Under the pieces are notes generated by a model. That model had not been told where the DNA came from. It ran no database searches and saw nothing but the letters and a program-made list of their open reading frames with translations. A program made the position numbers and the translations under genes. A DNA stretch of 64,000 nt from positions 61,194,001 through 61,258,000 of the forward strand of contig OZ024743.1 in assembly GCA_964016885.1 (NCBI GenBank), written 5' to 3'. This document shows, one piece after another, positions 34,347-51,902 of the stretch. This DNA is from Eledone cirrhosa. Lineage: Eukaryota. Positions within the stretch are counted from its first letter, which is position 1, and the number at the start of each line of letters is the position of its first letter.

Positions 34347-34628
34347 AATTGTTTCTACTTTTGGCACAAGGCCAGCAAATACCCAATGCATTACTGGTAC
34401 TTTATTCTATCGACCCCGGAAGGATGAAAGGCAAAGTTAACCTCGGTGGGATTTGAACTCAGATCATACAGTAAATAATTGTTTCTACTTTTGGCACAAG
34501 GCCAGCAATTATTCCAGTGCATTACTGGTACTTTATTTTATCGACCCCGTAAGGATGAAAGGCAAAGTTAACCTCGGCGGGATTTGAACTCAGATCATAA
34601 AGGGAGGTAACTCTATGCTTCAAAGCAT
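34347..34628 (-). mobile_element. Tandemly duplicated partial SINE
   Basis: Two partial copies, both preceded by acagtaaata. Confidence 0.8.
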
Positions 34629-35444
34629 ATATGTATACTGAAATACTAGTATGTATATGAATACACACACGTATACATATGTAGATGTACCAAGTTTCTG
34701 GGGAATAGAGGAAAGGTGTTTCCTCAAAAACCAGTATGACTCTAAAAACCGGTTTGTCTGTGTGTTTACATACAGAATAGCTGGCCACTCACAGTAAAGT
34801 GACCAGGGAAAAAATTTGGTACATCTACATATGTATACGTGTGTGTATTCATATACATACTAGTATTTCAGTATACATATATGGATGTACATCTTTAACT
34901 TAATTGTTTAAGCGTCAGTCATACAAAAGTGAGTTACAAACGAAACGAAATTTAATTTCGTTTCGTTATTTGTTTTTATCGTCTCCGTTGAACCGGTACT
35001 TACTCACACTCTATGCAAATTAGTCTGCCCACTACTAATTTTCATAGAAAAAGCATATAACGATATGTGCTTTTACGATTCTCTAGAGAGGCCGGAAGAT
35101 AGGTAAATATTGCTGATGAGTTGTAACAACAACGAAACTAGTTCAATATTCCTTGTCTGGCTTTCTGGAGAATAGAGGAAAGGTGTTTCCTCAAAAACCA
35201 GTATGACTCTAAAAACCGGTTTGTCTGTGTGTTTACATACAGAATAGCTGGCCACTCACAGTAAAGTGACCAGGGAAAAAACTTGGTACATCTACATATG
35301 TATACGTGTGTGTATTCATATACATACTAGTATTTCAGTATACATATATGGATGTACATCTTTAACTTAATTGTTTAAGCGTCAGTCATACAAAAGTGAG
35401 TTACAAACGAAACGAAATTTAATTTCGTTTCGTTATTTGTTTTT
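34628..35444 (+). mobile_element. Retrozyme-like element: inverted stub + ~1.6-mer of a 467 bp unit
   Basis: 34695-34978 repeats at 35162-35444; 34628-34697 is an inverted internal piece; hammerhead lies between the repeats; no credible ORF. Confidence 0.8.
35106..35150 (+). ncRNA. Minimal type I hammerhead ribozyme
   Basis: aatattg-CTGATGA-gttgt-aaca-acaac-GAAA-ctag-TT-caatatt. Confidence 0.92.
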
Positions 35445-35566
35445 ATATATATATATATATGTAAATATATAGAAATATATATATGTAAATACATATATAT
35501 ATTTATATATATATATATATATATATATATATATATATATATATATATATATATATATATATATAT

Positions 35567-35770
35567 AACGAAGGAAATGTGGTAAGGAACCAGGTGTACC
35601 ATAACGCACCAAAGTACTCAATACTTGAGGTAGTAGAGTGGGTAATAGGAACCAGTAGGACCCCGACAGCTGAGCTCAAGCCGTTTCGACGGCTAATTCT
35701 GGACTGAATTAGTCCAGAATTAGCCGTCGAAACGGCTTGAGCTCAGCTGTCGGGGTCCTACTGGTTCCTA
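35567..35770 (-). mobile_element. Family-A fold-back fragment
   Basis: Minus-strand tail plus a palindrome centred at ~35708. Confidence 0.8.
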
Positions 35771-35848
35771 TATATATATATATATATATGTGTGTAAATA
35801 TATATATAAGTAAATATATATCTATTTAATATATATCTATCTATCTAT

Positions 35849-36008
35849 CTAAGGCGGGTAAAATTCCCGAGATCCATGGACGAGTTCTCTCCAGCGGTCT
35901 CTGTCCCTCATTATCGCTGCCATGTCCTGCGTCTCCAACAGACCAGTGTCTGTCCTTAGGGCATCAACATACGTTAACCTTGGTCTTCCTCTTCTAGTGT
36001 GTCCATGT
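35849..36008 (-). mobile_element. RTE-X-like 3' end
   Basis: Matches 38142-38301. Confidence 0.85.
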
Positions 36009-48754: not shown

Positions 48755-48812
48755 CTTTAAGCTCTGAAGAGTCCCACTTTTAGTGTGGACGAAACATTGT
48801 CAGCAATTAAAG
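48755..48812 (+). ncRNA. Minimal type I hammerhead (right arm)
   Basis: gct-CTGAAGA-gtcccac-tttta-gtgtggac-GAAA-cattg-TC-agc. Confidence 0.88.
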
Positions 48813-48929
48813 ATATACCTATGTTCTAAGCGCTCTTTGTTGTTAATTGTATGTATATATATATGTATATATATATATATATATATATATATATATATAT
48901 ATATATATATATATATATATATATATATA

Positions 48930-50981
48930 TCAGGTTGGCCACAACTTACTTTCCCTATTTTTCCACGGTCACTTTTTTGCATGTTTCTTTCACCTGTGTC
49001 TTCCCACGATGGGATCTGTACACTTTTTTTTCTTCTATTCCTTTCCTATTTTCCCCTTCTGCCTCTCTCCTCATCTCCCCCCTATGCTTCCTCCTTTCCC
49101 TCTCTTTCCTTCTCTTTCTCCTTTTATTCTCTCTTTCTCTCTCCTTTTCCACCTGGCCTTTTGATTAATAAAAGGCCTCGGGCGCACCCGAACTACACCG
49201 ATGTCCTGTAATTCAGCGCCGAAACATCGGTTCGGGAAACATTTACAGCTGACGATGGAAACTCATTTCTTCCTTTCTCCTCCTGTTCCGTCCTAACCAC
49301 CATCCTAAACCTTGTTTTTAGTAACCACACAGCTTCTTTCGTTTCATGCTGCTTCTAATTCCAATAGCCGTGCTTTAGAGACTGTTGACCAAAGGGCAAC
49401 AAGGCTTGCGGCTGATTCTCAACGGAAAATGCGTACTTATGTCTTTCCGAGGGATTCTTCTTGTTACTGGTCTAAGAAAGGTTTTCAATACAACCCCCAA
49501 GAGGACTACGCATCCCATCCACATATCATCATTGGTAGTATGTCAACTGTTTGCGTCCATTGTAATGCAATGAGGTGGCCAGCGGAATCTACCGGTATAT
49601 GTTGCTCCAATGGAACGGTTAGATTGCCTTATTTACAAGTCGGTGCCGAACCTTTGAATTCTCTGCTGCTTGGAGACCACCCTGATTCTAAACACTTTTT
49701 CAGAAATATAAGAGCCTACAATTCGGCTTTCCAAATGACATGCTTTGGTCATACACCAATAAAAGATGGGAATTATATGCCCACATTTAAAGTGCAAGGC
49801 CAAATTTACCATCAAATAGGATCACTTATTCCACAAGATGGCAAAGAACACAGTTTTCTCCAGATCTACTTTATGGGCAACGGACCTGAAGAAATTGCAC
49901 GAAGGGCTTCAGTTGCTAAAAGAACGACACCTTCTCTTCTGCAGCCCCTTCAATATATGCTTCATTCCATAAACCCGTACATCACCATTTTCAAAACTGC
50001 TTTACAACGTAGAGATGCTAACAACAATCAATAAAAGGTTGTCATTCGAAATGACCGCGCTCCACCAGGGCAGCATCAGGGTTGCTTTAATAGACCCCAA
50101 ACCGATGAAGTTGCGGTGATTATAACACGTCCTAATGAGAGCGCTTCAAACCGTGATATTGTTATTGAATGTCAGGACTCGCATCTTCAAAAAATAAATG
50201 AACTTCATCCCGCATATGATGCTCTCCAGTATCCATTGCTGTTCCCCTTTGGCGACGATGGCTACCGCATTGATTTGCAAAAGTGTAATCCTGTAAGCTT
50301 AATGCATCTTACACCAGGGAAAACCATTTCACAAATGGAATTTTATGCATTTAGACTTATGTTTCGCAAAAACGACGTCAACATTCTGCATAGAACACGG
50401 ATGCTCCTCATCAATACCGTGTAGACATATGTGCTAAGATTGACACTGAACGCCTCCAATGGATAAGACATCATCAAAAGGAACTGCGTTCAGAAGAATA
50501 CGGCAATCTACGTGACGAAGTAAACCGAAATGATCAGGCTAATGCTTCGGATGTTGGGCTTTCTGTCATTCTCCCATCATCATACTCTGGAGGCCCCCGT
50601 TACATGCATGAAAAAATGCAGGATGCTCTGACCTATGTCCGCCATTGTGGCCGTCCTGATCTTTTTATCACCTTTACATGCAATCCAAAATGGTTTGACA
50701 TCCGGTCTCATTTACTGTTTGTCTTTTGGTTATCAATAAAAAAAATTACACATTGTTCAACCGACACGGCTAACGATACAATTCTCTATGTTCACATTTT
50801 AATGACACATATCTGTAAATAAAACTTGCTCTTTTTGAATACCGTCTCATTTTTTTTTTATTGAAAGAGTTGATCAGGTAAAATTATCCTCCAAGTTAAA
50901 TATACAACACGGAAATTGACCATTAACATTGCAGCCCTACCAAGAACTGACACCGTCCAATGGACGGGGGTCATTTGCTAG
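48930..50981 (+). mobile_element. Internally deleted Helitron (N-terminal Rep region only)
   Basis: CVHCNA..ICCSNG, IRAYNSAFQMT, QGQIYHQIGSL, YDALQYPLLF, LPSSYSGGPRYM, PDLFITFTCNPKW, with stops and frameshifts. 3' hairpin ccgtcc-aat-ggacgg and CTAG|T; the 5' TC is tentative. Confidence 0.88.
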
Positions 50982-51056
50982 TATATATATATATATATAT
51001 ATATATATATATATATATATATATATATATATATATGTATATATATATATATATAT

Positions 51057-51902
51057 AAGTTGTAATAAGATGAAAACGAAATTTCATTTCTCACTCTTAG
51101 TACGGCACTTACTTAAATGTAAGTATGTATGTATACGTACATACATATATGTATACAGACGTACAGTAGCATGCATATATATATATATATATATATATAC
51201 ATATACATACATATATACATACAGGTACACATACATATATGCACGTATCAGTTTAGCGGACGCTTATTATAACGCCCGCTTTGTTCGTTTGTAAACAAAC
51301 TGAACAGCCTGAATTTATTCCGTACGGTGTTAAGGCAACCACGTCACCTTTTTGTTCAACACTGACACAGGAACGATGTACTAGTTTAAAGCTTGTTAGC
51401 TATCATCAGCACCGTATACCCTTCTGCCAGATAGTTGAACGTTCGAAAGTATATACTTTCCTTATGAAAATTAACGGCTGAGCAGCCTAATTTGCATATC
51501 GAGTGAGTTAAGTCGGTCAGGCGTACCGAAAACGACAAGTTGTAATAAAATGAAAACGAAATTTCATTTCTCACTCTTAGTACGGCACTTACTTAAATGT
51601 AAGTATGTATGTATACGTACATACATATATGTATACAGGCGTACAGTAGCATGCATATATATATATATACATATACATACATATATACATACAGGTACAC
51701 ATACATATATGCACGTATCAGTTTAGCGAACGCTTATTATAACGCCCGCTTTGTTCGTTTGTAAACAAACTGAACAGCCTGAATTTATGCCGTACGGTGT
51801 TAAGACAACCACGTCACTTTTTTTTGTATGTATACGTCTGTATACATATATGTATACGTCTGTATACATATATGTATGTACGTATAAATTCAGGCTGTTC
51901 AA
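51057..51902 (-). mobile_element. Retrozyme-like ~1.6-mer of a 480 bp unit plus inverted stub; degenerate HHR 51373-51415
   Basis: 51057-51346 repeats at 51537-51817; acggtg-CTGATGA-t-agct-aaca-agct-t-TAAA-ctag-TA-catcgt; inverted piece at ~51832-51902. Confidence 0.75.

What the first reader, a model, noticed from the sequence alone, without database searches (positions are those of the whole stretch)
34628..51902. Three longer-than-unit elements with nearly the same monomer size (467, 481, 480 bp), suggesting circular RNA templates
Seen: 34628-35444 (+), 44797-45422 (-) and 51057-51902 (-) are 1.3-1.6-mers with one complete hammerhead motif each and no credible ORF. Two carry a short inverted stub at the 5' side, and the 35 kb and 51 kb tails share ACTTA...AGTGAG and gaaattt..cgttt. 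Known: retrozymes self-cleave to monomers that circularise. Inference: partial tandems arise when RT goes more than once round a ~0.47 kb circle.
Basis: partly seen in the sequence, partly recalled or inferred. Interest (0 to 1): 0.78.

Follow-up and report, generated by a model that had tools for sequence, protein, structure and literature searches.

The report
Ribozyme retroelements with circular-template footprints
These are three short copies of very common non-coding repeats that carry a self-cutting RNA motif, and sister copies of one of them repeat the same likely RNA-editing marks in every unit, which suggests that a Penelope-type transposon enzyme likely copies one small RNA, probably a circle, round and round into the chromosome.

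Summary
The three partial tandems are real: A 1.61, B 1.30, C 1.60 units. Each belongs to a dispersed family (hammerhead motif counts 7,819, 890 and 10,718) sitting in (TA)n with Penelope-like (PLE) footprints: two fixed 3' ends and head-to-head arms. They are animal non-LTR retrozymes, a known kind.

Two corrections. C's hammerhead here has U at catalytic G12. The shared size is weak evidence: A and C are homologous, and B is unrelated.

Family A gives mechanistic evidence. 35 of 37 two-armed insertions with two canonical ends pair one long and one short end. Private changes shared by all units of an insertion are A>G-rich on the ribozyme strand: 14 of 25, against 9 of 128 singletons (one divergent locus dropped; weaker in replication). 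One insertion has 20 near-identical units carrying three A>G changes. This points to one edited monomer being re-read, probably a circle. Some insertions fit partly cut linear multimers instead.

Cleavage, expression and circles are untested, and these three copies alone cannot decide. The scan found this kind, paired ends and in-step edits before, in this genome and others.

The parts
34695..35444 (+). Element A main arm, 1.61 units of a 467-nt monomer (last full unit 34978-35444); ends at the family's long 3' end, then (TA)n
34626..34697 (-). Element A inverted second arm (monomer 302-373), head-to-head with the main arm; ends at a non-canonical site in a TA-rich stretch
35106..35150 (+). 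Minimal type I hammerhead of A: intact core, short palindromic stem III, GUU triplet, predicted cut after 35143
   Evidence: stem II compensatory pair in 47 of 150 motifs
35373..35444 (+). PLE-type 'tail' of A: about 67-72 nt between the short (35372-35377) and long (35444) family 3' ends
44797..45422 (-). Element B, 1.30 units of a 481-nt monomer unrelated to A and C, (TA)n on both sides, single arm; family 3' ends at monomer 481 and 114
44869..44950 (-). Type I hammerhead of B with long stem II, GUA triplet, predicted cut after 44873; this copy has a stem II mismatch. The upstream partial unit lacks the first half of the core
51057..51823 (-). Element C main arm, 1.60 units of a 480-nt monomer homologous to A; family 3' ends near monomer 480 and 423
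51373..51415 (-). Hammerhead of C; this copy has U at G12 (51388) and is predicted inactive
51833..51901 (+). Patchwork inverted stub of C (three short inverted monomer pieces)
29202..29455 (+).
12078..13035 (+). Broken fragment of a Hydra-type PLE reverse transcriptase; intact 832-aa relatives exist elsewhere in the genome (candidate helper class, not linked by sequence)

Best explanation
A, B and C are copies of three dispersed non-coding hammerhead-bearing repeat families inserted in (TA)n, likely written there by a Penelope-like (PLE) enzyme that probably re-reads one monomer-sized RNA, most likely a circle, from both ends of a DNA cut.

Steps:
1. A multi-unit locus is transcribed, cut by its hammerheads and ligated to a circle of about 0.47 kb (inferred from PMC7229834; untested here).
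2. The highly paired RNA is sometimes A-to-I edited (inferred from strand-biased A>G changes).
3. A PLE protein, probably a dimer, nicks both strands of (TA)n and starts reverse transcription internally at two fixed sites, one for each DNA end. The two fixed ends and their pairing are shown; the enzyme step is inferred from PMC11167929.
4. Each enzyme runs a variable distance through the cut site, and the two cDNAs join head to head (shown as structure).

The three window copies are short products with a single hammerhead each, so they are predicted unable to release a doubly cut monomer.
For: Dispersed families: 7,819, 890 and 10,718 motif matches, controls 0. TA-rich flank after the 3' end in 63 of 77 A arms and 32 of 36 B arms.

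Two arms: 32 head-to-head pairs in 43 A loci and 17 in 24 further loci. Of pairs with two canonical ends, 35 of 37 are long plus short (p 5e-9; 11 of 12 in the replication set); 12 pairs with a non-canonical or unresolved end were set aside. B: 4 of 4 pairs. One exception, L024, has a different haplotype in each arm (4.4% apart), as two templates would give.

Shared edits: private changes present in all units were A>G in 9 of 12 cases against 4 of 77 singletons (L111 excluded). Replication: 5 of 13 against 5 of 51 (p 0.023). Pooled A>G to T>C is 14:2 (p 0.002). 9 of 9 first-set sites are predicted paired (background 0.61). L113 has 7+13 units, 0.05-0.08% apart, with A>G at 36, 40 and 41 in every full unit of both arms. 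C: 5 A>G and 1 T>C among 15.

Passage through the cut site: no length change in 145 of 147 A and 105 of 105 C crossings (units not independent). 107 of 118 A 5' ends lie away from the cut.

Hammerhead conservation: B stem II occurs in three compensatory forms (21, 14 and 12 of 57 matches), A in two. Circular folds are far more stable than shuffles for A (z -13.6) and C (-9.8), less so for B (-2.2; 40 shuffles).

Helper class: an intact, young, (TA)n-inserting Hydra-type PLE with two 3' ends exists in the genome.
Against: The edit signal is modest and sensitive to filters. With the divergent locus L111 included it is 11 of 31 (strand test p 0.14). With privacy judged over all 68 insertions the replication gives 2 of 8 (p 0.15). 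Per insertion it is 8 against 2 (p 0.055). It is absent in B (1 of 8) and in the first C set (0 of 4).

Some insertions are not homogeneous. L017 has 319A>C in 2 of 5 units. L091 has 327A>G in one arm only. L002's arms differ. The window's own A units differ at 192 (A/G) and 305. 3-4 partial variants appear in the replication set.

11 of 118 5' ends fall 0-15 nt after the cut (4.0 expected, p 0.0025, window chosen after seeing the data; best-window control p 0.28). L091's arm ends exactly at the cut. Both suggest cut linear templates in a minority.

The 31-unit array L101 has patchy shared variants that suggest later DNA-level expansion. A has a GUU triplet and a minimal stem III. 8 of 9 Xenopus dimers did not cleave in vitro (10.64898/2026.07.22.740005), and cleavage was dispensable for a Poseidon PLE in vitro (PMC11167929). 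The Hydra terminal repeat shows no similarity to A, B or C above shuffles.
Confidence: 0.62

Rival explanations
1. Same elements and same PLE helper, but the template is a linear, uncut or partly cut multimer transcript from an existing tandem locus; no circle is needed.
For: A purified PLE uses uncut RNA and starts internally at two sites (PMC11167929, parts 1-2). Excess of 5' ends just after the cut. L091 ends at the cut and has an arm-specific A>G. L017's variant in 2 of 5 units fits an ordered multimer. The window's A units differ. Long source arrays of 12-31 units exist. This model fully explains the three window copies.
Against: Identical private A>G changes in 5-20 units of both arms would need every unit edited alike, or a source array that was itself made from one edited monomer. 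Repeated 5' truncation would shorten arrays over generations (inference).
Confidence: 0.22
2. The template is one hammerhead-cut linear monomer whose ends stay paired through stem I, and the enzyme jumps from its 5' end to its 3' end on each round (a non-covalent circle).
For: Explains homogeneous edited arrays as well as a circle does. Stem I and its extension pair the two ends in the fold. It would give occasional stops just after the cut and a 3' end at the cut (L091). At least two B copies have deletions at the cut.
Against: 145 of 147 A and 105 of 105 C crossings have no length change, and no A or C crossing has an insertion; template jumps often leave added or lost bases (own knowledge). 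Related retrozymes are found as covalent circles (PMC7229834).
Confidence: 0.1
3. Short insertions were multiplied and homogenised afterwards at the DNA level (unequal crossover, slippage, gene conversion, DNA circles).
For: L101 (31 units) carries variants shared by subsets of units. Satellite-type amplification is proposed in 10.64898/2026.07.22.740005.
Against: Does not predict an A>G bias on one strand, sharing across inverted arms, fixed paired 3' ends, or multi-unit arms in many very young insertions.
Confidence: 0.05
4. Locus-specific duplications or chance repeats, or remnants of coding PLE ends.
For: PLE pseudo-LTRs also form partial tandems with hammerheads (PMC8557442, passages). 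Hydra-like ORF pieces lie near some loci.
Against: Hundreds to thousands of dispersed motifs. Arms continue upstream into permuted monomer, and repeats exclude flanks. Nearby ORF pieces are not contiguous.
Confidence: 0.01

Closest known systems
Metazoan non-LTR retrozymes (Cervera and de la Pena 2020, PMC7229834, parts 2-4 of 6 read plus word search; Li et al. 2026, 10.64898/2026.07.22.740005, parts 1-3 of 5 read; supplements not read)
   Same: Non-coding, low-GC tandem units with one type I hammerhead each; thousands of motifs; monomers to long multimers; co-occurrence with PLEs. C's U-U pair at the base of stem II matches axolotl HHR_Amex2. Copying of a circle into tandem cDNA is proposed in PMC7229834.
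   Different: Units are somewhat longer than the 170-400 nt circles shown, though within the 51-972 bp range of the 2026 preprint. The main text of PMC7229834 has no occurrence of 'inverted', 'microsatellite', 'cephalopod' or 'octopus'. Here there are paired arms, two fixed ends, (TA)n targets and in-step A>G changes. Expression and circles are not shown here.
Penelope-like elements, especially the Hydra clade, and non-autonomous Chlamys elements such as MRC1 (Craig et al. 2021, PMC8557442, passages only)
   Same: Partial tandems, inverted 5'-truncated copy, optional tail, (TA)n targeting, multicopy head-to-tail non-autonomous forms.
   Different: No ORF. Tails are 57-114 nt rather than 30-40. 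No sequence match to the one autonomous family examined, whereas Chlamys non-autonomous elements generally match their partners' 3' ends.
Poseidon PLE of Anolis in vitro (Frangieh et al. 2024, PMC11167929, parts 1-2 of 4 read)
   Same: Both strands nicked and extended, AT-rich target, two internal start sites bounding the tail, predicted dimer.
   Different: That work found no difference in start site between strands, found cleavage dispensable, and favoured an uncut multimer RNA. Here the two arms almost always use different ends, and shared edits point to one re-read monomer.

Membership tests
Non-LTR retrozyme | Tandem non-coding units of a few hundred bp, no LTR or ORF | tested here: met
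Non-LTR retrozyme | Type I hammerhead in each unit, conserved | tested here: met
   Family level: (core conserved, stem II covaries in A and B). The window's C copy is mutated at G12.
Non-LTR retrozyme | Two or more consecutive units with complete hammerheads ('active' criterion of Li et al. 2026) | tested here: inconclusive
   Met by many family loci; not met by any of the three window copies, which have one motif each
Non-LTR retrozyme | Dispersed, multicopy | tested here: met
Non-LTR retrozyme | Self-cleavage of the transcript | not testable with these tools
   Fold and conservation only
Non-LTR retrozyme | Expressed as circular RNA | not testable with these tools
   No run on record as RNA was listed; contigs cannot show it
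PLE-mobilised non-autonomous element | Partial tandem plus inverted 5'-truncated arm | tested here: met
   49 head-to-head pairs in 67 A loci; 4 in 30 B loci
PLE-mobilised non-autonomous element | Two 3' ends bounding an optional tail | tested here: met
   A 394-400 and 463-467; B 481 and 114; C about 423 and 480
PLE-mobilised non-autonomous element | Sequence similarity to the terminal repeat of an autonomous partner | tested here: inconclusive
   None to the one Hydra-type family examined; other PLE families were not retrieved
Autonomous PLE | RT and GIY-YIG ORF inside the unit | tested here: not met
Plant LTR retrozyme | Type III hammerhead in LTRs with PBS, PPT and 4-bp target duplication | tested here: not met
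   Type I topology and no LTR pair; PBS and PPT not searched

The most novel reading that the evidence does not exclude
One ADAR-edited circular RNA of about 470 nt is read by both subunits of a PLE dimer at once, one from each of two fixed start sites, for up to 13 or more rounds. The genome thus keeps a countable record of single edited RNA circles, and the PLE tandem, inverted and tail structure follows from one reaction.
Probability: 0.5. Interest if true: 0.75.

Novelty: new member of a known kind. Interest (0 to 1): 0.56.

Why it matters
Two open questions meet here. One is whether animal retrozyme circles are really the templates for new insertions, which PMC7229834 proposes. The other is how PLEs build tandem-plus-inverted insertions with a tail on one side, which PMC8557442 calls undefined. 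Family A offers thousands of young motifs, two fixed start sites that are almost always used as a pair, internal edit marks that trace single RNA molecules, and an intact candidate helper class in the same genome. That makes the circle-versus-multimer question testable by census and in vitro.

My searches of the held library found no paper joining these points (0 papers; 4 listed, none on octopus retrozymes by title and abstract start; 0; 15 of 21 listed, none by title; 1 unrelated). Subscription journals and unread supplements may hold it. The elements themselves are of a known kind, and the size coincidence is not informative.

Tried and rejected
Monomer-size coincidence as evidence: rejected (earlier scan notes report 310- and 591-nt families in this genome, unchecked).

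Rfam scan: dominated by spurious miRNA hits on microsatellites; only A's hammerhead was visible. The repeat finder was swamped by (TA)n.

Sequencing runs: no RNA holder listed. Contigs of 4 of the 6 runs were laid on A and B; they cannot give expression, strand or copy number and are not used as evidence.

Automated arm calling for C was confounded by its internal palindromic microsatellite, so C's pair and 5'-end statistics from that call are not used. DNA searches with two common A haplotypes returned nothing because common words are skipped. Pfam did not recognise the PLE proteins; the clade call rests on motifs read against PMC8557442. Local hammerhead folds were not better than shuffles.

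L111 (about 90% identical, sole member of its subfamily, 19 'private' changes) was dropped from the edit count; both counts are given. Samples are biased: best hits or first places on one contig that hold a chosen motif, and the 14 extra C loci were picked for having several units. Arm lengths are therefore not a census.
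Full report
Setting. The window lies in a 3.0-Gb assembly rich in (TA)n. An earlier scan note calls the genome an octopus; I did not test that.

Observation. Self-alignment confirms three partial tandems: A 34695-35444 (+, period 467), B 44797-45422 (-, 481) and C 51057-51823 (-, 480), of 1.61, 1.30 and 1.60 units. A has a 72-nt inverted arm and C a patchwork stub. A's hammerhead is intact. C's copy has U at G12, unlike 94 of 96 family motifs. B's has a stem II mismatch. A and C are homologous throughout and B is unrelated, so the size agreement is one coincidence, not three. 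A fourth, truncated C relative lies at 29202-29455.

Families. Motif patterns match 7,819 (A), 890 (B) and 10,718 (C) times, with reversed controls at 0. Stem II covaries in B (three paired forms in 47 of 57 matches) and A (149 of 150 paired, two forms), so the fold appears to be under selection. I examined 67 A loci, 30 B loci and 42 C loci. Arms continue upstream into permuted monomer, end mostly in (TA)n, and exclude flanks from the repeat. A tblastn with one intact PLE protein over 115 of these loci found no ORF running into an arm.

Insertion geometry. A has two 3' ends, at monomer 394-400 and 463-467; B at 481 and 114; C near 423 and 480. 49 head-to-head pairs were found in the 67 A loci. 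Of 37 with two canonical ends, 35 pair one long with one short end; 12 others were set aside. One exception (L024) has different haplotypes in its two arms. This matches the PLE pattern of partial tandem, inverted copy and one-sided tail (PMC8557442, passages), and the in vitro finding that a PLE extends both strands from two internal start sites (PMC11167929). The genome holds many intact 832-aa PLE frames. Their motifs (RWR, DKT, CxCX5C, C-terminal GIY-YIG-like region) fit the Hydra clade, which targets (TA)n. Their terminal repeat does not resemble A, B or C, so the partner is not identified.

Template. If one monomer is re-read, its private changes appear in every unit. In family A such changes were A>G on the ribozyme strand in 9 of 12 cases, against 4 of 77 single-unit changes. 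With the divergent locus L111 kept, the count is 11 of 31. A fresh set of 24 insertions gave 5 of 13 against 5 of 51; all five were in both arms. A stricter privacy filter gave 2 of 8. Pooled A>G to T>C is 14:2; per insertion it is 8:2 (p 0.055). L113 has 20 units in two arms with the same three clustered A>G changes in every full unit. C shows the same trend (5:1); B, which is older, does not. The simplest reading is A-to-I editing of one structured monomer that was then copied repeatedly onto both strands. Crossings of the cut site are clean, which mildly favours a ligated circle over jumping.

Counter-evidence. Several insertions are mosaic (L017, L091, L002, and the window's own A copy). 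11 of 118 5' ends fall just after the cut against 4.0 expected, though a best-window control gives p 0.28. One arm ends exactly at the cut. The 31-unit array L101 looks expanded at the DNA level. Published tests show weak cleavage for many retrozyme dimers and cleavage-independent insertion by a PLE. A mixture of circular and partly cut linear templates is plausible. The three window copies, at under two units, fit either.

Comparison. The elements meet the sequence-level definition of animal non-LTR retrozymes (PMC7229834; 10.64898/2026.07.22.740005) and work like non-autonomous PLEs. Cleavage and circles could not be tested, and supplements were not read. The circle-copying idea is in print as a proposal. 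The paired ends and in-step edits were not found in my searches. Earlier agents of this scan noted both on other DNA of this genome; those notes are not independent support.

Verdict. Real, a new member of a known kind, with useful but indirect genomic evidence for a re-read monomer. Identity as PLE-mobilised retrozymes about 0.9; circular template as the main route about 0.62; interest 0.56.

Noticed in passing
window 52336-53097: 380-nt near-perfect palindrome next to (TA)n; each arm carries a canonical-looking type I hammerhead (cores at 52420 - and 53013 +). Likely the two-armed 3' end of another PLE-type family.
   Followed up: partly
window 47400-48850: Another element with inverted arms and hammerhead cores at 47531 (-) and 48764 (+), with A-rich minisatellites inside.
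   Followed up: partly
window 36448-38038 (also 42991 - and 15886 -): 312-nt inverted arms with a longer hammerhead-like core (36543 -, 37943 +); related-looking motifs elsewhere in the window.
   Followed up: no
L156:1997-6615; window 12078-13035: Young Hydra-type PLE family: many intact 832-aa frames, about 99% identical copies, two 3' ends about 164 nt apart, inserted in (TA)n. By eye its terminal repeat has a hammerhead-like motif with C at core position 4 (untested). The L156 copy sits inside the internal TA run of a C element.
   Followed up: partly
run X4, laid on window 34978-35444: A single 497-nt contig closes on itself over the A monomer (467 plus a 30-nt overlap), one haplotype with a GUC triplet, in a run coded as another organism; no contig laid on B in that run. 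Run type unknown; a tandem DNA array would also close.
   Followed up: partly
L091:1340-2400: A insertion outside (TA)n with a short flanking duplication; one arm ends exactly at the predicted hammerhead cut.
   Followed up: partly
A monomer positions 440, 327, 41, 132, 430 (several loci): The same A>G changes recur in different insertions, as editing hotspots or shared ancestry would give.
   Followed up: partly
L101 (G000:C1:5738093-5752744): 31-unit arm plus a 0.7-unit inverted arm, with variants shared by interleaved subsets of units.
   Followed up: partly
window 34338-34628: 131-bp tandem SINE-like repeat with many relatives in the window; element A interrupts its tail. Resemblance to octopus SINEs is recalled, not tested.
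   Followed up: no
window 352-2619 (-), 19919-23297 (+), 38141-39580 (-): LINE-type reverse transcriptase frames (RVT_1 for the first and third; the second judged from its translation only), unrelated to the finding.
   Followed up: no
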